Below, piece after piece: positions 16,452-63,554 of a DNA stretch of 64,000 nt. The position numbers and the translations under genes are program-made. Below the pieces are notes generated by a model, which saw nothing but the letters and a program-made list of their open reading frames with translations, made no database searches and was not told the DNA's origin. Every line of letters starts with the position of its first letter. Positions within the stretch are counted from its first letter, which is position 1. The DNA is from a virus, in the IMG/VR virus record IMGVR_UViG_3300031963_000016, positions 97,712 through 161,711 of that record, one strand, 5' to 3'.

Positions 16452-16486
16452 TATAACATGTTCAATTGTATGAGGAATTTTTATGT

Positions 16487-17035
16487 ATGGCTCATTATGT
16501 TAATAACGCTGACTTTCTGCAGGCACTAATAGAATATAGAAAAAAGTGTAAAGATGCAGAATCAGAAGGTAATTCAAAACCCATTGTCAGCAACTATATC
16601 GGTGAATGTATTCTTAAGATTGCAACTCATCTTTCTTACAAACCAAATTTTATAAACTATTCTTATCGAGATGATATGATTCTCGATGGAGTGGAAAATT
16701 GCATTCAATACATAGATAATTTCGATCCAAGTAAGTCTAATAATCCTTTTTCTTATTTCACACAGATTATCTACTATGCATTCTTAAGAAGAATTGCTAA
16801 AGAAAAGAAACAATCTTATATCAAAGGCAAGTTAATACAAGATATGCCATTTGATTCTTTTGAATTACAAGATAGCGATGACGACAATGAGTTTCGTAAC
16901 GCATACTTAGATTTTATGCAACAGAATCATACATTTGATGATACATTTATGGAACGTAAAAAAGCCAAACGTAAAAAGAAACAAGTTGATTTAGATGATT
17001 TTTTAGGTGATAATAATGGCGAACTCGATAACTGA
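16487..17035 (+). CDS. gp55: Late-transcription sigma factor
   Basis: HYVNNADFL, YIGECILKIA, NYSYRDDMILDGVENC, NPFSYFTQI. Confidence 0.96.
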   Translation: MAHYVNNADFLQALIEYRKKCKDAESEGNSKPIVSNYIGECILKIATHLSYKPNFINYSYRDDMILDGVENCIQYIDNFDPSKSNNPFSYFTQIIYYAFLRRIAKEKKQSYIKGKLIQDMPFDSFELQDSDDDNEFRNAYLDFMQQNHTFDDTFMERKKAKRKKKQVDLDDFLGDNNGELDN

Positions 17036-27929: not shown

Positions 27930-28589
27930 ATGAAACTTAGTAAAGAAACAGTTGCTCTTTTTAAGAACTTTGCGGGAATTAACAGCAATCTTCTTTTAAA
28001 GAATGGCAACAAACTCGCAACAATCTCTGGTCAGAAGAATGTGATGGCAGATGCAACTGTAACAGAAACATTCCCTGACTTTGGAATTTATGATCTAAAC
28101 GAATTCCTAGGTGCGATGTCTTTGTTCGATGACCCCGAACTCACCTTCCAAGACAAGTATGTATCAATCAGTCAAGGCAACATGAAGATTAAATTCTTCG
28201 CTGCAGAACCATCTGTTTTGACTGCACCTCAGAAAGCAATCACATTCCCTGAAGCAGAAATTTCTTTTAATATGTCAGCATCGATGCTGAACATGATCCA
28301 TAAGACTGCCTCTGTTCTTCGTGCAGCAGATGTGTCAATTGTTGGTGATGGAACTACTATTACTGCAGTTGTTGGAGACAAAAAGAATGCTACTGGGAAC
28401 TCTTTCAGTGAAGCAATTGGTACCACTGATAAAGCATTCAAAGTTAATCTGAAGGTAGAAAATCTAAAGATGCTTCCAGGTGATTATGAAGTATCTATTT
28501 CCAGCAAGAAAATTTCTCGTTTTAAATCTCCAAGCAGCGATTTGGTTTATTATGTTGCTGTGGAAGCTGATTCCACTTTTGATTTCTAA
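27930..28589 (+). CDS. gp45: Sliding clamp
   Basis: MKLSKETVALFKNFAGINSNL, FGIYDLNEFL, YYVAVE. Confidence 0.95.
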   Translation: MKLSKETVALFKNFAGINSNLLLKNGNKLATISGQKNVMADATVTETFPDFGIYDLNEFLGAMSLFDDPELTFQDKYVSISQGNMKIKFFAAEPSVLTAPQKAITFPEAEISFNMSASMLNMIHKTASVLRAADVSIVGDGTTITAVVGDKKNATGNSFSEAIGTTDKAFKVNLKVENLKMLPGDYEVSISSKKISRFKSPSSDLVYYVAVEADSTFDF

Positions 28590-37220: not shown

Positions 37221-37789
37221 TGTTTATTTTTGATGTAGAAACTCTTGGTGTAGAATCTAATGCTGTCGTTCTATCGGCAGCATTGATTCATTTTGACCCA
37301 GAGAAACGACCAACATATCAAGACTTGCTTGATGACGCATGCTTTGTTAAGTTCAATGTACAACATCAAGTTGATGCTGGAAGAACTATGAGTAAATCTA
37401 CTCTTGACTGGTGGAAGGAACAGCATCGTTATGTTAAAGAAGTTAGTCTGCATCCTTCCAGAGATGATGTGAGTATGAAAACTGGAATTAAAATATTGCA
37501 TGAATATATGGCAAAGTTTCCAAATGCAGAAAAGCAAACTATGTGGGCGAGGGGTTCATTGGATCAATTAGCAATAGACTCACTAGCAGTGCAAGTTGGC
37601 ATGCAAGAAATTACAGGGTATAATATGTGGCGTGATGTTCGAACTGCAGTCGATATTCTCTACGGTACTACTAATGGCTATGTAGATATAGACCATCCTC
37701 TCTTCAAACGACATGAAGTTATCAAGCACCATCCTGTTCACGACTGCGCACTGGACGCAATGCAACTAATGTATGGAAAAGCAACTTAA
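37217..37789 (+). CDS. dexA: DEDD 3'-5' exonuclease (DexA-like)
   Basis: IFDVETLG, WARGSLD, RDVRT, HHPVHDCALD. Confidence 0.8.
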   Translation: MMFIFDVETLGVESNAVVLSAALIHFDPEKRPTYQDLLDDACFVKFNVQHQVDAGRTMSKSTLDWWKEQHRYVKEVSLHPSRDDVSMKTGIKILHEYMAKFPNAEKQTMWARGSLDQLAIDSLAVQVGMQEITGYNMWRDVRTAVDILYGTTNGYVDIDHPLFKRHEVIKHHPVHDCALDAMQLMYGKAT

Positions 37790-40278
37790 TGGAATTTTAT
37801 ACTAATGTAGCACCATATGGCGACAAGATGTTCGTCATTGGTTATGATAAAGGAAGACGATATATGCGTAAGATAGATTTCTATCCTACGCTTTTTGTCA
37901 CTTCTAAGTCCAAGTCTAAGTGGCAGACTTTGGAAGGAACATATGTCGATGAAATGAAACCTGGAAGTATTAAAGAAACTCGTGACTTCGTTAAGAAGTA
38001 TGAGGATGTTTCTGGTTTCGCAATCTATGGTAACACTAACTACGCATATCAATACATTAGCGATACATATGACAGTGATGTCAATTGGGACATGGAACAG
38101 ATTCGTGTGTTCTCTCTTGACATTGAAACTGCGACTGAGTCTGGGTTTCCAGACATTCGTAGTGCTAATGAAGAAATTCTTCTTATCACTATTAAAGATA
38201 TTCATTCCAAAAAGATTGTCACATGGGGTGTGAATCCATACGAAACCAAACGAGAAGATGTCACATACTATCGCTGCATAGACGAACATCAATTACTAAA
38301 AGAGTTTATCATCTGGTGGCAACAAAACTATCCAGATGTTATCACTGGCTGGAACACCGACTTCTTCGATGTACCATATCTTATTAAACGAATCTCTAGA
38401 GAACTCGGTGAGACATTCGCAAAGAAGTTAAGTCCATGGGGTCTTATTAATGAGAGAAATACATATATCAAAGGCAATGAAGAACTTCATTATGATATTT
38501 CTGGCATTAGTCAGCTTGACTATCTTGAGTTGTACAAAAAGTATACATACACCAAACAAGAATCCTATCGACTTGACTATATTGCACAAGAGGAACTAGG
38601 TGAACGAAAGAAAGAGAATCCTGGAACTGACTTCCGAGATTTCTATACTAATCACTGGGATAAGTTTGTTGAATATAACATTCACGATGTGGAACTTGTA
38701 GAAAAACTCGAAGACAAGATGCGTCTAATCGAACTACATATCACCATGGCATACAATGCTAAGATTAACTTCGAAGATGTCTACTCACAGGTTCGTATGT
38801 GGGATACAATTATCTACAATCACCTGCGTAAGAAAGGTATTGTCATTCCCATGAAAGTATCCAATGGTGGTAAAGATGCTCAATTTGAGGGTGCATATGT
38901 AAAAGACCCACTCATTGGTCAGCATAAATGGATGGCATCATTTGACTTGAACAGTTTGTATCCTCATCTGATTATGCAATACAATATCAGCCCAGAAACT
39001 CTTACGCATGAGAAACTATCTGTGACAGTTGATAAACTTCTCAACAAAGAGGTTGACACTGACTATTGTAAGCGTAGAGATCTAGCATTGACTGCGAATG
39101 GTTGGTGTTATCGTAAAGATATTAAAGGTTTCATGCCTGAACTGATGGAACAGATGTATGTCAATCGCTCCAAATTTAAGAAACAGATGTTGAAGATTCA
39201 ACAAGAGTATGAAAAAGATAAGTCACAGAAACATCTGTTGAAAGATATTTCTCGTCTTAACAATCTGCAGATGGCAATGAAGATTGCTCTCAACTCTGCT
39301 TATGGTGCGATGGGTAATCAGTACTTCCGTTACTTTGATATTCGTATGGCTGAAGGTATTACCACAAGTGGTCAGTTGTCGATTCGTTGGATGGCAAATG
39401 AGTTTAATCGCTATATGAATCGTTTGATGAAAACTACAGATGAAGACTATGTTATTGCCATTGACACAGACTCAATCTATCTAACGATGGAAAACCTTGT
39501 AGAGAAAGTTGCTGCTGATAAAGATACCGTAGGAAAGATTAAATATATGGACAAAGTCTGTGAAGAAATCTTTCAACCATTTATTGATCAAACATATCAG
39601 AAATTAGCAGATTACATGAACGCATATGCGCAGAAGATGCAGATGAAGCGAGAAGTTCTTGCTGACAAAGCAATCTGGACTGCCAAGAAACGATACGTAA
39701 TCAATGTACACAACTCTGAGGGTGTACAATATGCCAAACCTAAAATTAAAGTCATGGGTTTGGAAATGGTCAAATCATCTACTCCTGCTGTCATTCGTGA
39801 TAAACTAAAAGATTCTTTAGATGTAATTCTAAAAGGTAATGAATCTGATTTGCATACATATGTGAGAGAATTTAAAAAAGAGTTTGATAAGATGGCTGTT
39901 GAAGATATTGCTTTCCCTCGTTCTTGTAATGGTGTTAAACAGTATGCAGGATCGCCGATCTACATTAAGGGAACACCAATTCAAGTTCGTGGTGCATTGC
40001 TTTACAATCATCATCTGAGAAGACTTGGATTAGATAAAAAGTATCAGGCTATTCGAGATGGAGACAAAATCAAGTTTGTTTATCTACGAACTCCAAATCC
40101 GATTCAGGAAGATGTGATTGCTTTTAGCCAACATCTACCAAAAGAACTAAAATTGGAAACATACATAGATTATGACAAACAATTTGAAAAAGTTTTTCTT
40201 GATGCCTTACAAATTGTAATCGAACCTTTGAAATGGAAAACACAGGAGGAATCTTCATTGGAAGACTTCTTTGGATAA
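37789..40278 (+). CDS. gp43: Family B DNA polymerase
   Basis: DIET exonuclease motif, SFDLNSLYP, KIALNSAYG, DTDS; C-terminal SLEDFFG. Confidence 0.98.
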   Translation: MEFYTNVAPYGDKMFVIGYDKGRRYMRKIDFYPTLFVTSKSKSKWQTLEGTYVDEMKPGSIKETRDFVKKYEDVSGFAIYGNTNYAYQYISDTYDSDVNWDMEQIRVFSLDIETATESGFPDIRSANEEILLITIKDIHSKKIVTWGVNPYETKREDVTYYRCIDEHQLLKEFIIWWQQNYPDVITGWNTDFFDVPYLIKRISRELGETFAKKLSPWGLINERNTYIKGNEELHYDISGISQLDYLELYKKYTYTKQESYRLDYIAQEELGERKKENPGTDFRDFYTNHWDKFVEYNIHDVELVEKLEDKMRLIELHITMAYNAKINFEDVYSQVRMWDTIIYNHLRKKGIVIPMKVSNGGKDAQFEGAYVKDPLIGQHKWMASFDLNSLYPHLIMQYNISPETLTHEKLSVTVDKLLNKEVDTDYCKRRDLALTANGWCYRKDIKGFMPELMEQMYVNRSKFKKQMLKIQQEYEKDKSQKHLLKDISRLNNLQMAMKIALNSAYGAMGNQYFRYFDIRMAEGITTSGQLSIRWMANEFNRYMNRLMKTTDEDYVIAIDTDSIYLTMENLVEKVAADKDTVGKIKYMDKVCEEIFQPFIDQTYQKLADYMNAYAQKMQMKREVLADKAIWTAKKRYVINVHNSEGVQYAKPKIKVMGLEMVKSSTPAVIRDKLKDSLDVILKGNESDLHTYVREFKKEFDKMAVEDIAFPRSCNGVKQYAGSPIYIKGTPIQVRGALLYNHHLRRLGLDKKYQAIRDGDKIKFVYLRTPNPIQEDVIAFSQHLPKELKLETYIDYDKQFEKVFLDALQIVIEPLKWKTQEESSLEDFFG

Positions 40279-40320: not shown

Positions 40321-40572
40321 ATGAAAGCATTAAAATTTTATGCTGATTGGTGTGGACCATGCAAGGGGTTGAGTCAAGTCATTAAAAATGCTGGTGATAA
40401 AGTCACCATGGAAATTGAAAGTGTTAACATTGACGAAAACATTTTCATTGCACAAGATTACAAAGTTCGTTCTGTTCCAACTATGGTCATAGTAGATGAT
40501 AGTGGAAGTGAGATTCGTAGAAAAGTTGGAAGCATGAATGAAGAACAGTTACTAGAATTTCTGAAAGGTTAA
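40321..40572 (+). CDS. Thioredoxin
   Basis: FYADWCGPCK, VRSVPT. Confidence 0.93.
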   Translation: MKALKFYADWCGPCKGLSQVIKNAGDKVTMEIESVNIDENIFIAQDYKVRSVPTMVIVDDSGSEIRRKVGSMNEEQLLEFLKG

Positions 40573-41627: not shown

Positions 41628-41952
41628 ATATTCAGACTTGCCCATACTTGTAAAAGAGAATAATGGGTTACAAGAAGTAGAATTGACAGAAGGAGAATTC
41701 TCAGGTATAATCTATACCTATGGGAAAGTAGAGTTCGTTGAAGACAATTCAAATGAACACGTGAAACTTTCCTTTGAGTATGACATTGTAAATCTTAATA
41801 ACAAAGTTATTAAAGACACCAAACAATTTGAAACATACATAGGTAAAATACTTGAGAATTTAATTCAAATCGGTATTGAAAATAATAGCATTACATATAC
41901 AGGCGGAGTTGATGAGAATAGAGCAAAAGATTCTGGCAAGTCTGATTTATGA
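41620..41952 (+). CDS. gp40-like protein
   Basis: Between uvsX and gp41 as in T4; YTYGKVEF...LSFEYDI. Confidence 0.5.
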   Translation: MSKYSDLPILVKENNGLQEVELTEGEFSGIIYTYGKVEFVEDNSNEHVKLSFEYDIVNLNNKVIKDTKQFETYIGKILENLIQIGIENNSITYTGGVDENRAKDSGKSDL

Positions 41953-43300
41953 TGAGCAATATTGTCGCAAAGTAATTCCATTTATTAAAAGAGAGTATTT
42001 CGCAGATCGCAAAGAATCAATCTTAGCATATGAAATTGTTGAATTCTTTAATAAGTACAACAAACCTGCAAGTAAAGAAGTTCTCTCAATCGAAGTTTCG
42101 AATAGAAAAGATCTAAACGACAAAGAGTTAGCTGAACTAACTGATTACATTGGTAAGTTACAGCATGAGTCATCTAATGAAGATTGGGTATTAGAAAATA
42201 CAGAAAAGTTTTGTAAAGATAGAGCAGTTTATAATGCGATTCTTGCTTCAATCAAAATCATTGAGGGGAATGACAAGGTACATACGAAAGATGCTATTCC
42301 TAGTATTCTTTCTGATGCTCTTGCCGTTTCATTTGATAATCACATTGGTCATGATTACTTGGATGATCATGATGCGAGGTTTGATTTTTATCACAGGGTT
42401 GAAGAGAAGATTCCTTTCGACTTGGAGATGTTCAACAAAATCACCAAAGGTGGATTGAGTAAGAAAACTCTAAACATTGCACTGGCTGGTACTGGTGTTG
42501 GTAAGTCGCTGTTTATGTGTCACGTTGCTGGTTCTTGTTTGAATCAGGGCAAAAATGTTTTATACATAACAATGGAAATGGCAGAAGAAAGAATCGCTGA
42601 ACGTATTGATGCGAATCTTTTAAATCTGACAATGGATGAACTCAAAGTTATTGACAGAGATATTTTTGATAATCGTATTGATAAAATCTCTAAAAAGACT
42701 CAGGGTAAGTTAATTATCAAAGAGTATCCTACTGCTGGTGCACATGCTGGTCATTTCCGAGCATTATTGGAAGAACTTAAACTTAAAAGAGAGTTTAAGC
42801 CAGATATTATCTTTATTGATTATCTAAACATTTGCGCAAGTCAAAGACTGAAGCAGGGATCAAATATCAATTCTTATACATATGTAAAGGCAATCGCAGA
42901 AGAGTTGAGAGGGTTGGCAGTAGAGTATAATGTTCCAATTGTATCAGCTACACAAACTACTCGATCTGGTTTCACAAACAGTGATCCAGGACTAGAAGAT
43001 ACTTCTGAATCTTTTGGACTACCTGCAACTGCTGACTTTATGTTTGCTCTGGTGAGTAATGAAGAATTAGAGGCGTTGAATCAGATTATTGTGAAACAGC
43101 TGAAGAATCGTTACAATGATCCTAGTTTTTATAAACGATTTGTGATTGGTATTGATAGAGCAAAGATGAAACTATATGACACTGAGGCATCTGCCCAAGA
43201 AGGGTTGTCTGATGCTGGCCAGGATGATGAACCAGTGTTTGATAAATCATCGTTTGGTAAACGACAAAGAGCAGAATCGTTCGATGGATTTAAGTTTTAG
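41912..43300 (+). CDS. gp41: Replicative DNA helicase
   Basis: AGTGVGKS, ITMEMAEE, IFIDYLNI, SATQTTRSG, SESFGLPATAD. Confidence 0.96.
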   Translation: MRIEQKILASLIYDEQYCRKVIPFIKREYFADRKESILAYEIVEFFNKYNKPASKEVLSIEVSNRKDLNDKELAELTDYIGKLQHESSNEDWVLENTEKFCKDRAVYNAILASIKIIEGNDKVHTKDAIPSILSDALAVSFDNHIGHDYLDDHDARFDFYHRVEEKIPFDLEMFNKITKGGLSKKTLNIALAGTGVGKSLFMCHVAGSCLNQGKNVLYITMEMAEERIAERIDANLLNLTMDELKVIDRDIFDNRIDKISKKTQGKLIIKEYPTAGAHAGHFRALLEELKLKREFKPDIIFIDYLNICASQRLKQGSNINSYTYVKAIAEELRGLAVEYNVPIVSATQTTRSGFTNSDPGLEDTSESFGLPATADFMFALVSNEELEALNQIIVKQLKNRYNDPSFYKRFVIGIDRAKMKLYDTEASAQEGLSDAGQDDEPVFDKSSFGKRQRAESFDGFKF

Positions 43301-43310
43301 GAGAAAAGAT

Positions 43311-44636
43311 ATGGCAGTAAAAGTTATTATCGCTGACAGAAAATATGATTGTTCTCACCTTCAGGGACAGTTTGTAGATGAACAACATTATGATATATTG
43401 GTTGAAGAAGATTGCGATGTTTATGCTCCAGCTGGAAGTTTTGGAGATGAAACTAATGATGAACAGAGAATTATCTTTAAGTTTCGCAAAAATTATTTTA
43501 CTGAAGAAGAACAACGACAGGCATATCTTGGTCTAAGAGAAGCAGCAACTGAGACACAGAATCGTGGAATGGCTGCTGGTCCGAGAGAAGGTAAACTAGG
43601 TAATCGTGAATGGGTTACAGACTATGAGTTTGATGTCATTGACTATTTCAGCAATCCGAAATCTAATCTATTTGGTAGTGATCCTATTGAAGAAATCAAA
43701 GCACAGCACGCAAACAAACCACCACAACCATCTAATAAAAATAATGTATGGTCAATTCTGGCAGTCAAGCAAGACGAATTTGACTTTGAACGCTGGGTAG
43801 AAAAAACTAAGTTGTTGACACCAGATCAGCAACGAGATGAAACTCGTCGTATGGTTCAGAAATATATTTGTCAAACTACCTATGCCAATGGAGTGATGTC
43901 TGGTATCGCTGGGTGGTTTGATCGTTATCCTCGCATTCCTTATGGTCGTGCAACATCTTATACTGCTAATAATCTAGAAAAATTTAAGATGTCATATCCT
44001 TTTTTACAGCATCTGGCAAAAGGATTTAAAGATTTACTCCCATGGCGTTATTCTAATCAGATGAAAGCAGCAAATAAATTGGATCCAGAATTTCTAGTTC
44101 CTGGAACACCATTTACTACAATTACTGTTAATAAAACCTTTCGCACTGCTGCACATTACGATGCAGGTGATTTAAATGAGGGACTGTCAAATCTTCTAGT
44201 TCTTTCTAATGATGGTAGATTTACTGGGGGATATTTAATTGCACCAGAATATCGTGTTGCAGTTAATGTTCGTCCAGGAGATTTGTTACTCATTAACAAT
44301 CATGAAGTTATGCATGGCAATACTCCTATCGTTTGCGAAGAGGGTTCAGAGCGTGTTAGTTTGGTAGTATATTTCCGTGAGAAAATGCTAGAGTTGGGTA
44401 GTAAAGCATACGAAGATTGTCGTAGAGAATATGTAGAATCACGCAGACTTAATAAAAATCATCCTGGACACAAACATGATGATGGAACAGATCGTCATCT
44501 TTGGAATGGTGTCAGCCCTGGAATGTGGGAAGAGCAAGAATGGTATGACTATTGTGAATCAAAAGTTGGTCGTGAAGAACTAATTAAGATGCATCCACAA
44601 GCAGCAAATACTTCACTAGAGGAATTCTTCGGATAA
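43311..44636 (+). CDS. TET/JBP-family 2OG-Fe(II) dioxygenase
   Basis: FTTITVNKTFRTAAHYDAGD (HxD), GDLLLINNHEVMHGNT (distal His), RVSLVVYFRE (2OG-binding Arg). Confidence 0.82.
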   Translation: MAVKVIIADRKYDCSHLQGQFVDEQHYDILVEEDCDVYAPAGSFGDETNDEQRIIFKFRKNYFTEEEQRQAYLGLREAATETQNRGMAAGPREGKLGNREWVTDYEFDVIDYFSNPKSNLFGSDPIEEIKAQHANKPPQPSNKNNVWSILAVKQDEFDFERWVEKTKLLTPDQQRDETRRMVQKYICQTTYANGVMSGIAGWFDRYPRIPYGRATSYTANNLEKFKMSYPFLQHLAKGFKDLLPWRYSNQMKAANKLDPEFLVPGTPFTTITVNKTFRTAAHYDAGDLNEGLSNLLVLSNDGRFTGGYLIAPEYRVAVNVRPGDLLLINNHEVMHGNTPIVCEEGSERVSLVVYFREKMLELGSKAYEDCRREYVESRRLNKNHPGHKHDDGTDRHLWNGVSPGMWEEQEWYDYCESKVGREELIKMHPQAANTSLEEFFG

Positions 44637-45343
44637 TGTGCGCAGTTATTGGTACTATCCTGCAGCAACCAACAAAGCAGGACTTCTCTATGATTCGTCG
44701 TGTATTCCAGGAATCTAAAATTCGTGGAATGCACGCTACTGGTATTTCGTTCTTACCAAAGTGGAGCGACAAAATTGAGACAATTCAAGAGCCAATCCCA
44801 GCAGACAAATTTGTAGAGAAGTATTTACATAATGATAATTTATCAGATATGATTGCTGACGATGGCAATCTTTATATGATTGGTCATTGCCGTTATTCAA
44901 CCAGTGATTTGGAATTTAACCAGCCATTGTATTACAACGAAAAGTCTATTGTACACAATGGTGTCATTACGCAAGAACTACCAGAAAACTGGAAAGAACT
45001 TTATGGGTATGATTGCATTACAAAGAATGATAGTGAGTTAATATTACATTCAAGAGATCCTTTAAGAGAGTTTTCTCACATGTCTATGGGTGCAGTGGAA
45101 CTATATGTATACAAAAAGATGCGATTCTATCGCAATGGTAAGCGACCATTATATTTGTCTTGTATCTCAAACGGATGTATAGTTACATCTACAGCTAACA
45201 TTGCACTTCGTGCAGAAGTTCCTGGAAGACCAGTTGAGTCATTAATGAATCATTATATTACATTTGACGATCAACTTGCAATGATGATTGAGAAAGTTGA
45301 TGTTATGAACTCGGTAGATTTACAACATTATGAATTTCGTTAA
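44636..45343 (+). CDS. Stand-alone class II (Ntn) glutamine amidotransferase/amidohydrolase
   Basis: Cys2 nucleophile, RGMHATG, GHCRYST, NQP, HNG, NDSE. Confidence 0.85.
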   Translation: MCAVIGTILQQPTKQDFSMIRRVFQESKIRGMHATGISFLPKWSDKIETIQEPIPADKFVEKYLHNDNLSDMIADDGNLYMIGHCRYSTSDLEFNQPLYYNEKSIVHNGVITQELPENWKELYGYDCITKNDSELILHSRDPLREFSHMSMGAVELYVYKKMRFYRNGKRPLYLSCISNGCIVTSTANIALRAEVPGRPVESLMNHYITFDDQLAMMIEKVDVMNSVDLQHYEFR

Positions 45344-45971
45344 TTCTACAAAAGTAGAAGAGTTAATTAAAAATAGTCCAGCTGGTAAGAATACTAAGTT
45401 CTTATCTGCTGCACACTCATTATGGTATCGTTTTCATAATTATGATAAAGCACCGCCAATGGCATTAGAAGATAATGGTGAAGTTGTTTCATTAATCTTC
45501 GCAACGCATAACAGAGATGGATATGCTAATCTATATGAGATAGTAACACTTGAGGGAAAAGAAGGAAATGGATACGCATCAAAATGTTGGGAAGAGTGGA
45601 TCCGTTACGCTACCGAAGATCGTGGTTCTAAAAGACTTAAAATATCTTGTACCCCATCTTCAGTCACTTGGCATTACCGAAATGGTCTCATCTTCTGGGC
45701 AGTTGACCCCACAGGCTCGCTCCGCTCTGATCAACCTCTTTTTGCCACTCGTGCTGAACAACTCGCATTTAGATCTTCTGCTATTATCAGTCCAACATCG
45801 GCTCTACCGCCATATAAAGCAAGAGAGCAATTCCGAGCAGAAGGATTAGAAACCTATAAATGGGGTGATAAGAAGAAAGCAAAAACACAAGCTGCAATTG
45901 ATGCAGTTGGATCTGCTTGGTTAAGAGAAGCATTAATGGAACAGCCATCTTTAGAAGAATTTTTAGTATAA
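45330..45971 (+). CDS. GNAT-family acyltransferase
   Basis: LYEIVTLEGKEGNGYASKCW (motif A-like), SSVTWHYRNG (motif B-like). Confidence 0.65.
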   Translation: MNFVNSTKVEELIKNSPAGKNTKFLSAAHSLWYRFHNYDKAPPMALEDNGEVVSLIFATHNRDGYANLYEIVTLEGKEGNGYASKCWEEWIRYATEDRGSKRLKISCTPSSVTWHYRNGLIFWAVDPTGSLRSDQPLFATRAEQLAFRSSAIISPTSALPPYKAREQFRAEGLETYKWGDKKKAKTQAAIDAVGSAWLREALMEQPSLEEFLV

Positions 45972-46990
45972 TGGATTATCGTTTAACAGAAAATCGTAGA
46001 GAAGCATTTATTCGCTGGTGGGTTTGGTCATTAAAATATGATGACTGTGATCCAGCAGTATGGTGCACCAATTATCTACATAAAAGATACGAACATAATG
46101 ACGAACAACGTCTTTGGTTAGCGTGGCTGTATGGTAATACTTACTATCTACCAACTGCATGGATTCTTATGAATGAGTTTCCTGATTTTGAATTAGCCAC
46201 AGTAGATCGTATGGAACAATGGAACACTGCGAACTATAAACGTCTACGTTATCAAACTGACACAAAATGGAATAAAGGACATCTTCCTTCCATGTTTGCG
46301 TCATATCAAAAGTTTATTGGAGATAGAACACAACGAGAGGCATTGGAGAATTATTATGGAAATACTGAAGAAGAGAACTTTGATTCTCTGTGGAAAGTCA
46401 TTAAGTCTGGGTTGTATAAGTTTGGTCGCTATTCCACTTGGTTTTATCTTCAGCATCTTAAGCATACTGCTGATATCCGTATTTCTCCTACTAGTCTCAT
46501 GCTGGATGATTTTGATGGCTCTCGCTCTCATCGTAATGGACTTCTTCTTTCCATTGGCAGAGATAACGATTATGATAGAAAACTCACTGCAGGAGACTAT
46601 GCGAATCTTGAGTCACAAGCGAAAGAGATACTTTGTGAGACCCAAGCAAGATATCCAGAACTTGCATCGCAGATAGATTATTTTACGATGGAAACTTGTT
46701 TGTGTTCATTTAAGAAAATCTTTCGTGAGAATCATGGTCGCTATCTTGGATATTATCTTGATCGACAGGCAGAAGAAATTATGCAATGTGAAAAAGATGG
46801 ATGGTATGGAATTGACTGGGATGTTCTCTGGCAGTCAAGAGAAGAAACGATTGATTTAAGATTAGACCATAAACGTGGTATTGATAAAGAAAGATATAGT
46901 TCATTTTTAAGAACTGGCAAAATTGAAAATTTAGAATGGATGTTTGATGATGAAGAACCTATACTTAGTGGATTGGAGGCATTTGTATGA
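45971..46990 (+). CDS. Amino acid:DNA transferase / aGPT-pyrophosphorylase family
   Basis: DDCDPAVW, QRLWLAWLYGNTY, FGRYSTWFY (HhH-like), METCLCSFKK, GRYLGYYLD; clade not resolved. Confidence 0.72.
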   Translation: MDYRLTENRREAFIRWWVWSLKYDDCDPAVWCTNYLHKRYEHNDEQRLWLAWLYGNTYYLPTAWILMNEFPDFELATVDRMEQWNTANYKRLRYQTDTKWNKGHLPSMFASYQKFIGDRTQREALENYYGNTEEENFDSLWKVIKSGLYKFGRYSTWFYLQHLKHTADIRISPTSLMLDDFDGSRSHRNGLLLSIGRDNDYDRKLTAGDYANLESQAKEILCETQARYPELASQIDYFTMETCLCSFKKIFRENHGRYLGYYLDRQAEEIMQCEKDGWYGIDWDVLWQSREETIDLRLDHKRGIDKERYSSFLRTGKIENLEWMFDDEEPILSGLEAFV

Positions 46991-47406
46991 GTACCGATAG
47001 TGATAATATGAATAATATTATAGATGTATCTTCTGGTATAACTTCTACCATGTCAATGGGACATAGTGATACTATTACAATTACATCAGGGCTACCTTCT
47101 AATTACGGAACTATTGCAATTGGAATTGTTACAGAAGATATTTTAGATCGTTATTCATTTAATCGTTTCACTGTCGATCATAAAGTACAGGAACATGAGT
47201 TGATGAAACTCAAGGAGACTGTTCCAACGTATGCCGATGAAATCAAAGAAAATTTGGCTAAGAATATGGCTCGAGATATAATGAAGAAAATGACATTTAC
47301 CAAAAGGAAAGATTTAGATGCTGATGTGCATCATTTCTTGGGAAGAGTCTGGGTATTTACAGAGGATGAATTGAAAAAACTTATTGAGGAAGTGAAAAAT
47401 GCTTAA
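46987..47406 (+). CDS. Hypothetical protein within the modification cluster
   Basis: Coupled to both neighbours. Confidence 0.65.
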   Translation: MSTDSDNMNNIIDVSSGITSTMSMGHSDTITITSGLPSNYGTIAIGIVTEDILDRYSFNRFTVDHKVQEHELMKLKETVPTYADEIKENLAKNMARDIMKKMTFTKRKDLDADVHHFLGRVWVFTEDELKKLIEEVKNA

Positions 47407-48007
47407 TGAACGTGTTGGTGTGATGGATAGTATTTCGATCCAAGTCACTCGTGCAGAACCAAAGAAACGAAAATTGATAGCTGTTGGTGGTTCTCCAGGA
47501 ACAGGTAAGACTACTCTTTTCCGTAAGTTTATGGAAGGTAAGACTTGGGAATCAGTCGAACCAAAGAAAATGCTCCCTGCAATGTATTGTAAAGAACTAG
47601 ATTTGTACGTTCTAGGTAAATACGAGGAAGGTGAGACTTTCGCTGGAACAGATCGTCTTTCTATGGCTGTCCAGCCTATCGCTCAGTGTTTCGTCACCGA
47701 ATGTACCTCAAATATTCTCTTCGAGGGAGACAGAATCTTTAATCAGTCTTTCTTAGAGTTCGCTATGGGGCTACCTAATACAGACCTCCAGGTGGTCTTC
47801 CTAAAAGTCCCTAAAACAGTCCTCGAATCCCGATACAAGGATAGAGGATCCGACCAGTCCGAGCAATTCCTAAAAGGTCGGGAAACTAAATATAGTAATC
47901 TATTGTCAAATTTTGAACTGATGCCCTATATTACTGAGTTTAATAACACCAACTTAGAGGAGCAGGGGAAGGTTCTTGCATTCCTGGAGAAGCAGTTAGT
48001 CCAGTGA
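47399..48007 (+). CDS. P-loop kinase, 5-hmU DNA kinase-like
   Basis: GGSPGTGKT, VLGKYE...FAGTDRL, ILFEGDR. Confidence 0.75.
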   Translation: MLNERVGVMDSISIQVTRAEPKKRKLIAVGGSPGTGKTTLFRKFMEGKTWESVEPKKMLPAMYCKELDLYVLGKYEEGETFAGTDRLSMAVQPIAQCFVTECTSNILFEGDRIFNQSFLEFAMGLPNTDLQVVFLKVPKTVLESRYKDRGSDQSEQFLKGRETKYSNLLSNFELMPYITEFNNTNLEEQGKVLAFLEKQLVQ

Positions 48008-48031: not shown

Positions 48032-48748
48032 ATGTCTTTCCTAGAAAATACTAACTTCGACTGGATGGAAATGCTTAACTTTTATGAGCGTCCATTTAGA
48101 GCTACATTTGTACCTTCAAAAGTTTGGCTAGACCTAGACAAATATGTAAATGACGAAGAAGGTCTTGCAAACTATTTTAAGAAATGGCGCACCAAGATTA
48201 AATGGGTAAAAGAAAAGTCTAAAGCCATAAAATATAATCGATACATAGCAATCGGTGGAGAGTATGACGCTGAGACAAGACAATGTATCATTATAATCTA
48301 TACAGATAAGTTTAGAACATATAAGTTCGACAAAGAAAACTGGGATCGTTTTAAGTTTAAACTAATTCAAGTTGAGATGCATGAATTAATACACTTCATG
48401 CAGTATGATAGAAGAGGAGACGAATCTTCCAGATATGTTCTCCCATATAAAAAAGTTAAACATACTAAGAAAGATGCTGAGCGTAGATATCTTTCTGAGT
48501 TTGACGAGATCCAAGCATATGCACACTGTGTTCTTTTAGATTTTAAAGATAAAAGACCAACTATTCCAACACAATCTCTTATCTCTCGTGCAAGAACATA
48601 TAGAGATTCAAAAACCCTCCACTATATCCTTCGAACCTTTAATTACGACTTTCGAAATAATCATGCAATTCCTAAGTTAATGCAGCAGATTATGAAGTGG
48701 GATCGTAAGTATCAAAGGTTTATCCGAGCATCCAGAAGACCTAAATAA
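48032..48748 (+). CDS. Zincin-like HExxH protein
   Basis: HELIH followed by EIQAY. Confidence 0.55.
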   Translation: MSFLENTNFDWMEMLNFYERPFRATFVPSKVWLDLDKYVNDEEGLANYFKKWRTKIKWVKEKSKAIKYNRYIAIGGEYDAETRQCIIIIYTDKFRTYKFDKENWDRFKFKLIQVEMHELIHFMQYDRRGDESSRYVLPYKKVKHTKKDAERRYLSEFDEIQAYAHCVLLDFKDKRPTIPTQSLISRARTYRDSKTLHYILRTFNYDFRNNHAIPKLMQQIMKWDRKYQRFIRASRRPK

Positions 48749-48767
48749 TCCTTATTAGGATTTAGGT
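48739..48767 (+). promoter_or_regulatory. Late promoter inside an RBS-sequestering hairpin
   Basis: ACCTAAA(48739) pairs with TTTAGGT(48761), inner TCCT-TATT-AGGA; CTAAATA at 48741. Confidence 0.65.
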
Positions 48768-48773
48768 GCATCT

Positions 48774-49685
48774 GTGACTGCAAATACCGTATTATCTGAC
48801 ATTAATGAAATCTATACTGGATTTGTCTTAGCTGGAGACAAATGGTTTGACCCATCTGCTAAGTTTCAGTATGAGCAGCGTGTTAAACAAGCCAAACCAG
48901 AAGAGGTCGCTGATGCTGAAGGTAAAGCAAGAGCAATGGCTACTGAGTTTATTAAGTGGGCAAAAGAAAATGGATATAAAGGATTTGTAAACAAAGTTTG
49001 GTGGACTGCTCGACCAAATTCTATGACCTCTGCAGTTGGAGAATTTGTTGATCAAAAGAAAAATCCTACTGATATATTGGTAAAATTTAATGATGGACCA
49101 GCAAGAGGATTTTTAGGATTATCTGCGAAAGCAACACAAGGTAAAGGTGACATTGGTTTTAAAAATCCAGGTATCGGAACTGTCGATAATTCTCTTGGAT
49201 TAACATTTGCGAATCAGTATAAATTATTACTTGAAGATACAATTGAGAAGTATAAACTGCCAAATTCAGCAGGTGAACGAAAGATCTTTATCAGAACAAA
49301 TCCTGATACAAAAAAAGAAACTGAAGAGATCGGTGTGAATATGATGGCAGATATGAGAGATAAATTATTACAAAGATTACTACAATTTAATCAACAAGAA
49401 TTATTTAAGTATCTTTTAAAAGATTGGATGGATGCAGAAGTTTTGTTTCCACCATATATTAAAGTAACAGGGCAAGGTAAAAAACCACCCTATGCGGCAA
49501 CAGTGATGGATCCAGTGAAGAACGACAAATTAGATGCGTTATCAAAATATCCAATCACTCTAGAAAAAATAGGCAACGAATCGATTGGCGTGAAAGCAGG
49601 AGAAAAAAAGATTATGAAGATTCGTTTTAAGTTTGAGTCAGAAAAGATGGCATCATCTTTAAAACTCTCTGGGGATCCATGGTAA
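48774..49685 (+). CDS. PD-(D/E)xK restriction-endonuclease-like protein
   Basis: VWWT...NPTDILVKF...GLSAK...FKNPG; GTG start. Confidence 0.62.
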   Translation: MTANTVLSDINEIYTGFVLAGDKWFDPSAKFQYEQRVKQAKPEEVADAEGKARAMATEFIKWAKENGYKGFVNKVWWTARPNSMTSAVGEFVDQKKNPTDILVKFNDGPARGFLGLSAKATQGKGDIGFKNPGIGTVDNSLGLTFANQYKLLLEDTIEKYKLPNSAGERKIFIRTNPDTKKETEEIGVNMMADMRDKLLQRLLQFNQQELFKYLLKDWMDAEVLFPPYIKVTGQGKKPPYAATVMDPVKNDKLDALSKYPITLEKIGNESIGVKAGEKKIMKIRFKFESEKMASSLKLSGDPW

Positions 49686-49686
49686 A

Positions 49687-62877: not shown

Positions 62878-63554
62878 AAGTACAATTGATTAGTTATTCA
62901 GAACCTGCTAGCACTATGCCAGCAGACATTGATAATGTGCAAGACCTAATTGCGTTTTGCGCCAGAGTCTCAAATCCTTCCAACCAAACAAACACAGAAA
63001 CATCAGAGAAGTTAATTCGTTATCTTATCAAACACAAACATTGGTCACCACTTGAAATGGTTAGTGTTTGTTTAGAAATTGAAACAACTCGTGATATTGC
63101 TCGCCAAATATTACGACATCGCTCTTTTTCGTTTCAAGAATTTTCCCAGCGTTATGCAGACCCAACTAAAGATTTAGATTTTGTCATTCGTGACGCACGA
63201 CTACAAGATACAAAAAACAGACAAAACTCTGTTGAGATGGATATACATAATGATGAACATCGACAAATTGCTTATCAGTGGGAAAATCTTCAACGTGATC
63301 TGATTCAAAGAACGAGAGATGTATATGCTTGGGCAATCACCAAAGGTATTGCTAAAGAACAAGCAAGAGCAGTTCTACCAGAAGGACTAACTGTTTCTCG
63401 TTTATACATGAATGGCACACTTAGAAGTTGGGTGCACTTTATTGAGTTGCGCAGTGGCAATGGTACACAGAAAGAACACATGTTGGTTGCACAAGAGTGC
63501 GCAAAGGTTATCGCCAAAGTATTTCCGATGGCGAATGAATTCGTAAATCAATAA
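62874..63554 (+). CDS. thyX: Flavin-dependent thymidylate synthase
   Basis: HWSPLE, RQILRHRSFSFQEFSQRY, ARAVLP; probable GTG start. Confidence 0.95.
   Translation: MKVQLISYSEPASTMPADIDNVQDLIAFCARVSNPSNQTNTETSEKLIRYLIKHKHWSPLEMVSVCLEIETTRDIARQILRHRSFSFQEFSQRYADPTKDLDFVIRDARLQDTKNRQNSVEMDIHNDEHRQIAYQWENLQRDLIQRTRDVYAWAITKGIAKEQARAVLPEGLTVSRLYMNGTLRSWVHFIELRSGNGTQKEHMLVAQECAKVIAKVFPMANEFVNQ

What the first reader, a model, noticed from the sequence alone, without database searches (positions are those of the whole stretch)
43311..48007. Candidate new post-replicative DNA hypermodification pathway: TET/JBP + kinase + amino acid:DNA transferase + amidotransferase + GNAT
Seen: six translationally coupled genes immediately after the gp41 helicase, carrying TET/JBP (HxD...H...R), Ntn-amidotransferase (Cys2, GHxRYST, HNG, DSE), GNAT, aGPT-PPlase/AADT and P-loop kinase motifs. 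Known: in phages such as ViI, M6 and PaMx11, hmU in DNA is phosphorylated by a P-loop 5-hmU DNA kinase, the phosphate is displaced by an amino acid:DNA transferase, and the adduct can be tailored further, including by acetylation. Those phages make hmU at the nucleotide level with a dUMP hydroxymethylase. JBP enzymes oxidise T in DNA; characterised phage TETs oxidise 5mC. Inference: this phage makes ordinary dTMP (thyX present; no hydroxymethylase or C5-MTase in this window), oxidises T (or 5mC) on the DNA, phosphorylates it, aminates or aminoacylates it, and acylates it. That would be an entirely on-DNA route to an aminomethyl/acylaminomethyl-type pyrimidine. Similar neighbourhoods have been predicted computationally, but I know of no characterised product for this combination.
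Basis: partly seen in the sequence, partly recalled or inferred. Interest (0 to 1): 0.92.

Follow-up and report, generated by a model that had tools for sequence, protein, structure and literature searches.

The report
Glutamine-fed, clamp-tailed phage thymine hypermodification cassette
A complete T4-like environmental phage carries six tightly packed genes that most likely oxidise thymine in finished DNA and convert it to an aminomethyl, probably acetylated, base; the gene set is a published kind, but its product, its glutamine-driven nitrogen step and its polymerase-like tails are untested.

Summary
Window 43311-48007 has six overlapping + strand genes: TET/JBP dioxygenase, class II glutaminase (GATase), GNAT, amino acid:DNA transferase (AADT), a 139-aa unknown and a P-loop kinase, all with catalytic residues intact. 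The complete 161.7-kb genome has ThyX but no C5-methyltransferase, ThyA-type hydroxymethylase or ParB.

Most likely pathway: T to 5-hmdU to 5-phosphomethyl-dU to 5-aminomethyl-dU to 5-acetylaminomethyl-dU, all on the polymer.

The cluster type is already published (Lee 2021; O'Toole 2026), and this scan has noted it in at least 18 other genomes. No paper I found reports the product.

Two points go beyond the papers I read:
- **GATase and AADT look like one amidotransferase.** The predicted complex scores 0.88 against 0.31 for the best control, and the glutaminase active-site face forms the interface. Eight natural GATase-AADT fusions exist. The two genes co-occur in 37 of 37 bounded cassettes that carry either.
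- **TET, GNAT and AADT end in SLE(E/D)F(F/L)-type tails.** These match this phage's DNA polymerase and gp55, which are the clamp-binding partners in T4. Orthologues in a ParB-type phage lack the tails.

Nothing was tested chemically. Verdict: a new variant of a known kind, of moderate to high interest.

The parts
41683..41711 (+). Sigma-70-type promoter-like site (TTGACA-17-TATAAT, 12 of 12) ahead of the helicase and the cassette
   Evidence: This is a consensus match only. No terminator-like site of note separates the helicase from the cassette.
41876..43300 (+). gp41/DnaB-type replicative helicase, the conserved upstream flank of the cassette
   Evidence: Pfam DnaB_C 1.4e-20 and phrog_19 4.9e-128. 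It precedes the TET gene in every related locus where the upstream sequence is held.
43311..44636 (+). TET/JBP-family 5-methylpyrimidine dioxygenase (441 aa), predicted thymine dioxygenase
   Evidence: Tet_JBP 1.5e-24. H282-x-D284, H335 and R348 are invariant and align to hTET2. It is 44% identical to a 304-aa ParB-associated TET, from which it differs by an insert of about 90 aa (residues 95-185) and a C-terminal extension of about 75 aa.
44613..44633 (+). C-terminal tail SLEEFFG of the TET
   Evidence: It matches the polymerase tail SLEDFFG. L436, F439 and F440 are invariant in the family. The tail is absent from the ParB-type orthologue.
44636..45343 (+). Stand-alone class II (Ntn) glutamine amidotransferase domain (235 aa), predicted ammonia-donating subunit of the AADT
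   Evidence: GATase_6 4.1e-8. The catalytic and glutamine-binding residues are invariant and align to GlmS. Predicted complex with the AADT scores 0.88 against a best control of 0.31. Natural fusions exist.
45330..45971 (+). GNAT-fold N-acyltransferase (213 aa) with tail SLEEFLV (45948-45968)
   Evidence: Acetyltransf_1 8.6e-5. The AF2 model has pLDDT 86.6. All top PDB fold matches are GNAT amine N-acetyltransferases such as SpeG. It is 48% identical to the GNAT of the ParB-type cassette, which lacks the tail.
45971..46990 (+). Amino acid:DNA transferase family protein (339 aa) with tail GLEAFV (46970-46987), predicted acceptor subunit of a glutamine:5-phosphomethyl-dU amidotransferase
   Evidence: ADDT 1.5e-22. 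E241 and C245 are conserved with M6 gp51 and the ViI gp247 orthologue. Elsewhere the family is fused to the GATase, to the kinase or to a TET.
46987..47406 (+). 139-aa protein of unknown function; the Ser/Thr-rich N-terminus varies and the C-terminal ~85 aa are conserved; an optional member of the cassette
   Evidence: No Pfam, PHROG or ESM Atlas match. Alignment A7. Present in 25 of 43 bounded cassettes.
47399..48007 (+). P-loop kinase (202 aa), predicted 5-hmdU DNA kinase
   Evidence: Ploopntkinase3 4.3e-8 and phrog_800 2.8e-16. hhalign to the proven kinases gives 92% for M6 gp54 and 95% for PaMx11 gp49. Four natural AADT-kinase fusions carry this kinase type.
37789..40278 (+). gp43-type DNA polymerase ending in SLEDFFG (40255-40275), the reference for the tail motif
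   Evidence: DNA_pol_B. Tail. T4 gp43 ends in SLDFLFG.
27930..28589 (+). gp45-type sliding clamp, the proposed docking partner of the tails
   Evidence: 36% identity to T4 gp45 over its full length, E 4.3e-28.
16466..17035 (+). gp55-type late sigma factor carrying VDLDDFLG near its C-terminus
   Evidence: 38% identity to T4 gp55. Tail. T4 gp55 carries SLDFLYEAND.
62934..63527 (+). ThyX (flavin-dependent thymidylate synthase): the phage makes ordinary dTMP
   Evidence: Thy1 1.1e-45 at genome position 160645-161238.

Best explanation
This is a fully post-replicative thymidine hypermodification cassette. It is probably transcribed with the replicative helicase.

Proposed steps:
1. The TET/JBP enzyme hydroxylates thymine in phage DNA to 5-hmdU.
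2. The P-loop kinase phosphorylates it to 5-phosphomethyl-dU.
3. The AADT attacks C6 with Cys245 and expels phosphate. Instead of a free amino acid, it captures ammonia released from glutamine by the GATase docked on it. The product is 5-aminomethyl-dU.
4. The GNAT N-acylates that amine, probably with acetyl-CoA, to give 5-acetylaminomethyl-dU.

TET, GNAT and AADT carry the same C-terminal tail as the phage's DNA polymerase and gp55. They probably ride the gp45 sliding clamp and so act on freshly replicated phage DNA. The GATase would be carried along through the AADT.

Shown here: gene content, residue conservation, homologies, a predicted complex, natural fusions, co-occurrence and the tail motif. 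Inferred: every chemical step, the product and the clamp binding.
For: **Families and catalytic residues.**

**Thymine rather than 5mC.**
- The complete genome has no PF00145 or PF00303 gene and does have ThyX.
- The TET is 44% identical (hhalign E 1.4e-48) to a TET that sits beside a ParB_N gene. That neighbourhood type belongs to the ParB-dependent subclass; O'Toole 2026 showed T oxidation in vivo for its tested members and in vitro for 5mYOX176.
- A fused GATase-AADT also sits next to a PF18748 5-hmdU DNA kinase and a ThyA-like gene.

**Kinase.** hhalign gives 92% against M6 gp54 and 95% against PaMx11 gp49, including motifs beyond the P-loop. Four AADT-kinase fusions carry this kinase type.

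**GATase and AADT as one enzyme.**
- The predicted complex scores ipSAE 0.88, 0.88 and 0.87 against a best control of 0.31. That mark was reached by 58 of 80 solved complexes and 2 of 110 mismatched pairs. Contacts agree in at least 92% between runs, and partner pLDDT is at least 87.
- The GATase interface residues (1, 28-33, 87-89, 109-110 and others) surround the catalytic Cys and the glutamine pocket.
- No solved AADT homologue exists, so the score is not recalled from a known structure.
- Eight of 150 family representatives are N-GATase/C-AADT fusions. Six of them start with Met-Cys; P0156 appears N-terminally truncated and P0164 starts MGC.
- In 43 bounded cassettes, the GATase and the close AADT occur together in 37 and neither occurs alone.
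- The variable genes (GNAT, amidoligase, rSAM, phosphatase) change around this constant core.

**GNAT.** Fold search hits are amine N-acetyltransferases. PaMx11 gp48 is a precedent for acetylating 5-aminomethyl-dU.

**Tails.**
- The motif L[DE]xF[FLV] occurs 9 times in 51,505 residues, and 6 of those lie in C-terminal tails against about 0.7 expected. The six are polymerase, gp55, TET, GNAT, AADT and one baseplate protein.
- T4 gp43 and gp55 carry SLDFL(F/Y).
- The tails are conserved across the family.
- They co-vary with the polymerase tail in DLP6, C48C1 and Cr30.
- They are missing from orthologues in a ParB-type phage.
- T4 alpha-glucosyltransferase binding gp45 is a published precedent.
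Against: - No nucleoside chemistry, expression data or binding data exist for this phage.
- The kinase is not in the Pfam family of the proven 5-hmdU DNA kinases.
- The TET model was too poor to inspect (pLDDT 57).
- According to O'Toole 2026, ParB-less clade C1 enzymes showed no activity on T or 5mC in E. coli in earlier work.
- All characterised AADTs use amino acids or polyamines, not ammonia.
- The GATase's nearest relatives in cultured phages sit in amidoligase systems without an AADT. Some family variants also place an amidoligase next to the GATase, so the glutaminase could serve another enzyme.
- The GNAT shows no specific similarity to PaMx11 gp48, and its acyl donor is unknown.
- Acidic-hydrophobic C-termini are common, and one structural protein also carries the tail motif.
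- Complex prediction is a model's confidence, not a measurement.
Confidence: 0.68

Rival explanations
1. The chemistry starts the same way (T to 5-hmdU to 5-phosphomethyl-dU), but the AADT installs a free amino acid, as in M6, ViI and PaMx11. The GATase then amidates or trims that adduct, or feeds another enzyme, and the GNAT acetylates it. The product would be an acetylated aminoacyl or amino-acid-amide thymidine rather than acetylaminomethyl-dU.
For: - All characterised AADTs use glycine, serine or putrescine.
- GATase relatives in PaP3-like and Vibrio phages sit beside COOH-NH2 ligases.
- Family variants carry Amidoligase_2 directly after the GATase.
Against: - The window's cassette has no ATP-dependent ligase to activate a carboxylate.
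- The GATase keeps the residues that bind the alpha-amino and alpha-carboxylate groups of free glutamine.
- Its active-site face is the predicted interface with the AADT.
- Fusions join the GATase directly to the AADT, in the domain order typical of amidotransferases.
- The amidoligase is a variable extra, whereas GATase plus AADT is constant.
Confidence: 0.17
2. The cassette modifies cytosine. The TET oxidises 5mC laid down by a host methyltransferase, and the kinase, AADT, GATase and GNAT then decorate 5hmC.
For: - Characterised phage TETs of clades A and B act on 5mC, and Burke 2021 suggested kinases could act on 5hmC in some contigs.
- 5mYOX97 and 5mYOX176 oxidise both T and 5mC in vitro.
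Against: - The complete genome has no C5-methyltransferase.
- The AADT shares the residues proven in T pathways.
- The fused GATase-AADT sits next to a 5-hmdU DNA kinase and a ThyA-like gene.
- The TET's relatives are the ParB-associated T-dioxygenase type.
- Host methylation would cover only a few sites.
Confidence: 0.05
3. The tails are not clamp-binding motifs. They are a lineage-specific C-terminal signal of another kind (assembly into a replication or modification complex through another partner, or a degradation or solubility tag), or a chance resemblance.
For: - A baseplate hub protein also ends in LDSFF.
- The thioredoxin-like protein ends in LLEFLKG.
Against: - The two T4 proteins known to use this tail on gp45 (gp43 and gp55) carry the motif here.
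- The motif is enriched about eight-fold at C-termini.
- It tracks the polymerase tail across four divergent phages.
- It is absent from orthologues in a phage of another type.
Confidence: 0.3

Closest known systems
Pseudomonas phage PaMx11 pathway to 5-acetylaminomethyl-dU (gp49 kinase, gp46 glycine:DNA transferase, gp47 FAD lyase, gp48 acetyltransferase; Lee et al. 2021, PMC8989533)
   Same: Both use a kinase-activated 5-hmdU, an AADT with the same Glu/Cys catalytic pair, and a GNAT as the last step. The predicted end product is the same.
   Different: - PaMx11 makes 5-hmdU before replication, with a dUMP hydroxymethylase. Here a TET/JBP does it on the DNA.
- PaMx11 obtains the amine from glycine plus a flavin lyase. 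Here there is no flavin enzyme, and a glutaminase is predicted to supply ammonia directly.
- The GNATs are unrelated beyond the fold.
- The kinases belong to different Pfam families.
ParB-dependent clade C1 5mYOX (T-dioxygenase) clusters of metaviromes (O'Toole et al. 2026, PMC13229309)
   Same: The TET is 44% identical to a ParB-associated one. The downstream GATase-GNAT-AADT-kinase genes are orthologous (39-48% identity) and in the same order. The paper reports that linkage with GATases, kinases and AADTs.
   Different: - This genome has no ParB.
- The TET carries an insert of about 90 aa where the paper places its variable insertion domain, plus a C-terminal extension of about 75 aa.
- Three enzymes carry polymerase-like tails that the ParB-type orthologues lack.
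TET_JBP + 5-HMUDK + aGPT-Pplase2 metavirome contigs (Lee et al. 2021, Figure 2 sequences 22-25; predicted earlier by Iyer/Aravind 2013, which I could not read)
   Same: The idea is the same: on-DNA T oxidation replaces dUMP hydroxymethylase and feeds the kinase and AADT steps. Amidotransferase domains were noted there as unexplained companions.
   Different: No role was proposed for the glutaminase in the papers I read. Here it is tied to the AADT by a predicted complex, by fusions and by co-occurrence.
Class II (Ntn) amidotransferases GlmS, PurF and AsnB
   Same: They share the N-terminal Cys nucleophile, the Arg/Asn-Gly/Asp glutamine pocket, a glutaminase placed N-terminal to the acceptor domain in the fused forms, and an active-site face turned towards the acceptor.
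   Different: The acceptor domain is an AADT acting on a base in polymeric DNA. No such combination has been described in solved structures. In this phage the two halves are separate genes with the GNAT gene between them.
T4 gp43 and gp55 clamp-binding tails, and T4 alpha-glucosyltransferase binding to gp45 (Sommer 2004, cited and confirmed in PMC13216743)
   Same: The SL(D/E)xF(L/F)-type tail sits at or near the C-terminus. A DNA-modifying enzyme recruited by the sliding clamp has precedent in T4.
   Different: T4 alpha-GT and beta-GT lack this tail. Here three enzymes of one pathway carry it. Binding has not been tested.
Base J synthesis in kinetoplastids (JBP1/2 plus a glucosyltransferase)
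   Same: Both begin with post-replicative T hydroxylation by a TET/JBP enzyme, followed by decoration of 5-hmU.
   Different: Here decoration goes through phosphorylation and nitrogen transfer, not glucosylation. A related phage, C48C1, does carry a sugar-nucleotide gene after its TET.

Membership tests
TET/JBP 5-methylpyrimidine dioxygenases (PF12851) | Profile match above the curated cut-off | tested here: met
   86.5 bits against 34.9.
TET/JBP 5-methylpyrimidine dioxygenases (PF12851) | HxD...H iron triad and the 2-oxoglutarate-binding Arg | tested here: met
   H282, D284, H335 and R348 are invariant in 30 relatives and align to the HxD, the distal His and the RISLV Arg of human TET2.
TET/JBP 5-methylpyrimidine dioxygenases (PF12851) | Oxidation of T (rather than 5mC) in DNA | not testable with these tools
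   Indirect support only: no C5-methyltransferase in the genome and kinship with a ParB-associated TET.
ParB-dependent subclass of phage T-dioxygenases (O'Toole 2026) | A co-located ParB-like activator gene | tested here: not met
   No ParB_N match at E <= 1 anywhere in the complete genome. The closest ParB-type cassette, L161, does have one.
Class II (Ntn) glutamine amidotransferase domain | Cys directly after the initiator Met, plus the Arg, Asn-Gly and Asp of the glutamine site | tested here: met
   C2, R86, N108-G109 and D132 are invariant and align to C1, R73, N98-G99 and D123 of E. coli GlmS. GATase_6 scores 33.8 against 27.
Class II (Ntn) glutamine amidotransferase domain | A cognate acceptor (synthase) domain that receives the ammonia | tested here: inconclusive
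   A complex with the AADT is predicted (0.88 against 0.31) and eight natural fusions exist. There is no biochemical proof.
Amino acid:DNA transferase (PF18724, aGPT-Pplase clade 2) | Profile match, plus the catalytic Glu and Cys shown by mutagenesis in M6 gp51 and ViI gp247 | tested here: met
   80.9 bits against 26.2. E241 and C245 are invariant in an alignment with M6 gp51 and the Ag3 orthologue of ViI gp247. The mutagenesis is reported in PMC8989533.
Amino acid:DNA transferase (PF18724, aGPT-Pplase clade 2) | Use of a free amino acid as the nucleophile | not testable with these tools
   I propose ammonia instead. This would be a functional departure within the family.
5-hmdU DNA kinase (PF18748, HMUDK) | Profile match to the family of the proven kinases | tested here: not met
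   The window kinase matches PF18751, not PF18748. M6 gp54 matches PF18748. Remote homology is clear: hhalign gives 92% (E 7e-7) to M6 gp54 and 95% (E 1.9e-8) to PaMx11 gp49.
GNAT N-acyltransferases | GNAT fold with the acyl-CoA pyrophosphate-binding loop | tested here: met
   Pfam 23.2 against 20.7. G79-x-G81 is invariant. The model has pLDDT 86.6, and 117 PDB matches at E <= 0.001 are led by GNAT N-acetyltransferases.
T4-type sliding-clamp clients | C-terminal SL(D/E)xF(L/F)-type tail like those of gp43 and gp55 | tested here: met
   TET ends in SLEEFFG, GNAT in SLEEFLV, AADT in GLEAFV, the polymerase in SLEDFFG, and gp55 carries DLDDFLG. T4 gp43 ends in SLDFLFG and gp55 carries SLDFLY.
T4-type sliding-clamp clients | Physical binding to gp45 | not tested

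The most novel reading that the evidence does not exclude
In this large family of T4-like phages the whole pathway is coupled to the replisome. The gp45 sliding clamp recruits the thymine dioxygenase, the DNA transferase (with its docked glutaminase) and the acetyltransferase through polymerase-type tails. The clamp thereby takes over the activator role that a ParB-like protein plays for related dioxygenases. That would also explain why ParB-less clade C1 enzymes looked inactive in E. coli. The nitrogen would come from a previously undescribed kind of amidotransferase, a class II glutaminase paired with a DNA-base transferase.
Probability: 0.33. Interest if true: 0.82.

Novelty: new variant of a known kind. 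Interest (0 to 1): 0.62.

Why it matters
Phage DNA hypermodifications defeat restriction and CRISPR systems and are a source of enzymes for DNA labelling and epigenetic sequencing. This family is abundant in metagenomes. I found 358 TET relatives in IMG/VR and more than 1,500 AADT clusters in total.

If the model is right, four things follow:
- It names the product of a cluster type that two laboratories have catalogued but not solved.
- It gives the unexplained glutaminase a job, as the ammonia donor to a DNA-base transferase. This would be a new acceptor class for Ntn amidotransferases.
- It offers a shorter, entirely on-polymer enzymatic route from plain thymine to aminomethyl-dU, which is a useful chemical handle.
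- It suggests that hypermodification is targeted to newly replicated phage DNA by the sliding clamp, in parallel with the ParB activation reported in 2026.

Each of these points can be tested with ordinary expression, LC-MS and pull-down experiments.

Tried and rejected
- **TET structure.** The AlphaFold2 model from a 30-row alignment was too poor to use (pLDDT 57, pTM 0.40). I therefore did no fold search on it, and its N-terminal 215 residues stay unassigned. The ESM Atlas gave only weak Tet_JBP-like leads for them (0.83).
- **139-aa protein.** No Pfam, PHROG or Atlas match.
- **Single-sequence PDB searches.** The GATase and the AADT found nothing. The AADT profile also found nothing.
- **Close matches in cultured phages.** Megablast of the cluster against cultured phages found nothing.
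- **Longer AADT relatives.** The search for homologous proteins with 'longer' lengths found none, and 'near' listed only close family members. The fusions appeared only in the search of 50%-identity representatives.
- **GATase scan of viral contigs.** The 80 loci listed were all from the same family, so it did not test the GATase-AADT linkage outside that family.
- **Comparisons with PaMx11.** hhalign of the GNAT against PaMx11 gp48, and of the AADT profile against PaMx11 gp46, gave no match. M6 gp51, like the window protein, matches Pfam ADDT; PaMx11 gp46 was not scanned.
- I read the contexts of the fusion proteins from only two viral-contig loci instead.
- **Papers not available.** Iyer et al. 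2013 is not held, and no supplements of O'Toole 2026 are held. I could not check whether a member of this exact family was assayed.
- **Two extra tail hits.** I asked whether the two other proteins with a similar tail were clamp clients. They are a baseplate hub and a neck or adaptor protein, so I treat them as background.
- **Not attempted.** I made no sequencing-run or read-level search for expression.

Full report
**What is there**

The window is the last 64 kb of a complete 161,711-bp virus record with direct terminal repeats. It is a T4-like phage. Its B-family polymerase is about 54-55% identical to those of cyanomyoviruses. It encodes gp41, UvsX, gp45 and gp55 homologues.

Between the gp41 helicase (41876-43300) and a conserved 238-aa gene (48032-48748) lie six + strand genes whose ends overlap by 1-14 nt. 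A consensus sigma-70 promoter-like site lies at 41683-41711, ahead of the helicase. I saw no convincing terminator inside the cluster.

| Gene (window) | Size | Pfam match |
|---|---|---|
| 43311-44636 | 441 aa | Tet_JBP, 1.5e-24 |
| 44636-45343 | 235 aa | GATase_6, 4.1e-8 |
| 45330-45971 | 213 aa | GNAT, 8.6e-5 |
| 45971-46990 | 339 aa | ADDT, 1.5e-22 |
| 46987-47406 | 139 aa | none |
| 47399-48007 | 202 aa | Ploopntkinase3, 4.3e-8 |

**Are the enzymes intact?**

I aligned each protein with 13-29 relatives taken from related viral contigs.

- **TET.** H282-x-D284, H335 and R348 are invariant. They align to the HxD, the distal His and the RISLV Arg of human TET2.
- **GATase.** It starts Met-Cys. 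R30-G31, R86...T89, N108-G109 and D132 are invariant. They align to C1, R26, R73/T76, N98-G99 and D123 of the E. coli GlmS glutaminase domain. By established GlmS/PurF structural knowledge, that set binds the alpha-amino and alpha-carboxylate groups of free glutamine. This argues for a true glutaminase rather than a hydrolase acting on a DNA-linked residue.
- **AADT.** It shares E241 and C245 with M6 gp51 (glycine:DNA transferase) and with the Ag3 orthologue of ViI gp247 (serine:DNA transferase). Lee et al. 2021 showed by mutagenesis that a conserved Cys and a neighbouring Glu are essential in those enzymes.
- **GNAT.** This was the weakest Pfam call, so I modelled it (pLDDT 86.6). All leading PDB fold matches are GNAT amine N-acetyltransferases such as SpeG.
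- **Kinase.** It is not in the Pfam family of the proven 5-hmdU DNA kinases; M6 gp54 is PF18748. Profile comparison still gives 92% probability to M6 gp54 and 95% to PaMx11 gp49, over 123-140 columns that include motifs beyond the P-loop.

**Thymine or 5-methylcytosine?**

The complete genome has no C5 DNA methyltransferase and no ThyA-family enzyme, so it has no dUMP or dCMP hydroxymethylase. It does have ThyX. The phage therefore replicates with ordinary T and C, and the only 5-methylpyrimidine present in bulk is thymine.

The TET is 44% identical (hhalign E 1.4e-48) to a 304-aa TET in contig L161 that sits directly after a ParB_N gene. O'Toole et al. 2026 defined that ParB-associated type. 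They showed T oxidation in vivo for tested members of the subclass and in vitro for 5mYOX176.

A fused GATase-AADT in another contig (L160) is followed by a PF18748 5-hmdU DNA kinase and a ThyA-like gene. This ties the GATase-AADT unit to 5-hmdU chemistry.

**How common and how variable**

The TET has 358 relatives in IMG/VR. The AADT has more than 1,500 clusters at 90% identity.

Forty-three related loci are bounded on both sides, by the TET and by the 238-aa gene:

| Cassette content | Loci |
|---|---|
| GATase + close AADT + kinase | 37 |
| of these: with this GNAT and the 139-aa gene | 24 |
| of these: with this GNAT, without the 139-aa gene | 4 |
| of these: without this GNAT | 9 |
| Divergent AADT + kinase, no GATase | 2 |
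| None of these genes | 4 |

The GATase and the close AADT never occur apart. The variable positions hold:
- Amidoligase_2 plus a different GNAT;
- Amidoligase_2 plus a low-molecular-weight phosphatase;
- one or two B12-type radical SAM enzymes;
- an extra 2OG oxygenase;
- an inositol-1-phosphate-synthase-like gene, as in Caulobacter phage Cr30.

This reads as a constant core (TET, kinase, AADT, GATase) that makes a common intermediate, with exchangeable tailoring enzymes around it.

**The glutaminase belongs to the AADT**

Three independent lines agree.

1. *Predicted complex.* The score was 0.88, 0.88 and 0.87 in three runs, against a best control of 0.31. That mark was reached by 58 of 80 solved complexes and 2 of 110 mismatched pairs. 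Contacts agreed in at least 92% between runs, and partner pLDDT was at least 87. The tool notes that these counts hold only roughly with my own alignments. The GATase residues at the interface (1, 28-33, 87-89, 109-110, 112-115, 168-171, 185-188) surround the nucleophile and the glutamine pocket, which is the geometry of an ammonia-channelling amidotransferase. No solved relative of the AADT exists, so the score is unlikely to be recalled from a known complex.
2. *Natural fusions.* Among the 150 best representatives of the AADT family, eight are N-terminal GATase/C-terminal AADT fusions. Six of them start Met-Cys-Gly. Their glutaminase halves match my GATase profile at E 1e-19 to 1e-50. The same set holds four AADT-kinase fusions with this kinase type and two TET-AADT fusions. 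Fusions thus link all four core enzymes.
3. *Co-occurrence.* The perfect co-occurrence described above.

All characterised AADTs add an amine or hydroxyl nucleophile to the exocyclic methylene left when phosphate departs. Ammonia from a docked glutaminase is a chemically plain substitute, and it would give 5-aminomethyl-dU in one step. The GNAT would then give 5-acetylaminomethyl-dU. PaMx11 reaches that product in vitro by a longer route using glycine, a flavin lyase and an unrelated GNAT.

In the amidoligase variants, the same amine could be acylated with an amino acid instead.

**Polymerase-like tails**

- The polymerase ends in SLEDFFG, the TET in SLEEFFG, the GNAT in SLEEFLV and the AADT in GLEAFV. 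The gp55 homologue carries VDLDDFLG ten residues from its end.
- T4 gp43 ends in SLDFLFG and T4 gp55 carries SLDFLYEAND. From my own knowledge of the T4 literature, these are the tails that bind gp45.
- In this proteome the motif L[DE]xF[FLV] occurs nine times in 51,505 residues, and six of those lie within the last 22 residues, against about 0.7 expected. The six are polymerase, gp55, TET, GNAT, AADT and one baseplate hub.
- The tails are conserved throughout the family.
- They follow the polymerase tail in distant phages:

| Phage | Polymerase tail | Modification-gene tail |
|---|---|---|
| C48C1 | ATLEDFFG | TET: ISLEEFFV |
| DLP6 | ATLDSFFA | TET: ATLGDFFV |
| Cr30 | ADLSSLFD | gene after its AADT: SDLSKLF |

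- The orthologous TET, GNAT and AADT of the ParB-type contig L161 are 44-48% identical but stop short of the tail.
- The GATase, kinase, 139-aa protein, amidoligases and rSAM enzymes have no such tail.
- T4 alpha-glucosyltransferase is reported to bind gp45, so clamp recruitment of a modification enzyme has precedent, although T4's glucosyltransferases lack this tail.

I could not test binding.

**Relation to ParB**

The genome has no ParB_N gene. Compared with the ParB-associated orthologue, the TET has an insert of about 90 residues (about 95-185) and a C-terminal extension of about 75 residues that ends in the tail. O'Toole et al. locate their variable insertion domain in the corresponding region. 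They showed that swapping this domain can remove ParB dependence. They also state that some ParB-less clade C1 enzymes showed no activity in E. coli.

A clamp-dependent enzyme would behave that way. This is inference only.

**What is known already**

- Lee et al. 2021 described contigs in which TET_JBP replaces dUMP hydroxymethylase next to thymidine hypermodification genes. They listed amidoligase and glutamine amidotransferase domains as unexplained companions.
- Burke et al. 2021 noted kinase and aGPT-Pplase genes in TET contigs.
- O'Toole et al. 2026 proved phage T-dioxygenases and stated the linkage with GATases, kinases and AADTs.
- None of the papers I could search reports the product or a role for the glutaminase.
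- This scan has also noted the same cassette in at least 18 other genomes, and follow-ups there reached similar readings. Those are leads, not evidence.

**Verdict**

The cluster is a member of a published kind. Its new aspects are the predicted GATase-AADT amidotransferase, a fully on-DNA route to an (acetyl)aminomethyl-uracil, and the clamp-type tails. All chemistry remains inferred.

Noticed in passing
L048:9975-11385, L012:10046-11436, L023:11686-15170, L017:11725-13155, L016:9359-9955: The slot between GATase and kinase is a hot-spot of variation in related phages. It can hold Amidoligase_2 plus a second type of GNAT, Amidoligase_2 plus a low-molecular-weight phosphatase, one or two B12-binding radical SAM enzymes, or an extra 2OG-Fe(II) oxygenase. 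This suggests a series of different side chains built on one intermediate.
   Followed up: partly
L082:9347-12899 and L002 (Caulobacter phage Cr30) 10024-13471: A GATase-less variant pairs the TET with a divergent AADT (25-28% identity), an inositol-1-phosphate-synthase-like protein and the kinase. The cultured phage Cr30 has the same set, so its DNA could be analysed directly.
   Followed up: partly
L003 (phage C48C1) 8317-10349: Here the TET homologue is followed by an unknown 344-aa protein and a UDP-galactopyranose mutase. This hints at a sugar decoration of 5-hmU, in the manner of base J.
   Followed up: no
L160:2-4920 (IMGVR_UViG_3300002242_003156): A fused GATase-AADT sits with a PF18748 5-hmdU DNA kinase, a ThyA-like 369-aa protein and a 2OG oxygenase. 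The glutamine-fed step therefore also occurs in a pre-replicative hmU context.
   Followed up: partly
window 40321-40572: The 83-aa thioredoxin-like gene directly after the DNA polymerase ends in QLLEFLKG, which loosely resembles the tail motif.
   Followed up: no
window 41876-43300 and relatives: The gp41 helicase has its own conserved C-terminal tail, ESF(D/E)G(F/W)KF. It differs from the clamp-type motif and may be a docking peptide for another replisome partner.
   Followed up: no
window 48032-50904: The 238-aa gene after the kinase is conserved even in relatives that lack the cassette, so it marks the downstream boundary. The next two genes (303 and 405 aa) have no Pfam or PHROG match.
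   Followed up: no
L157 (Pseudomonas phage PaP3) 2436-8188 and L158 (Vibrio phage 1.262.O) 3692-7332: The nearest GATase relatives in cultured phages are N-terminal domains of about 500-aa proteins. They sit in clusters with COOH-NH2 ligases, an ATP-grasp-like gene and a gamma-glutamyl cyclotransferase, and no AADT is annotated in the 10-kb regions I read. The function of these clusters is unknown.
   Followed up: no
genome C1:57088-57816 (- strand; outside the window): A baseplate hub protein ends in LEGLDSFF. It is the only structural protein matching the tail motif, and this is probably chance.
   Followed up: partly
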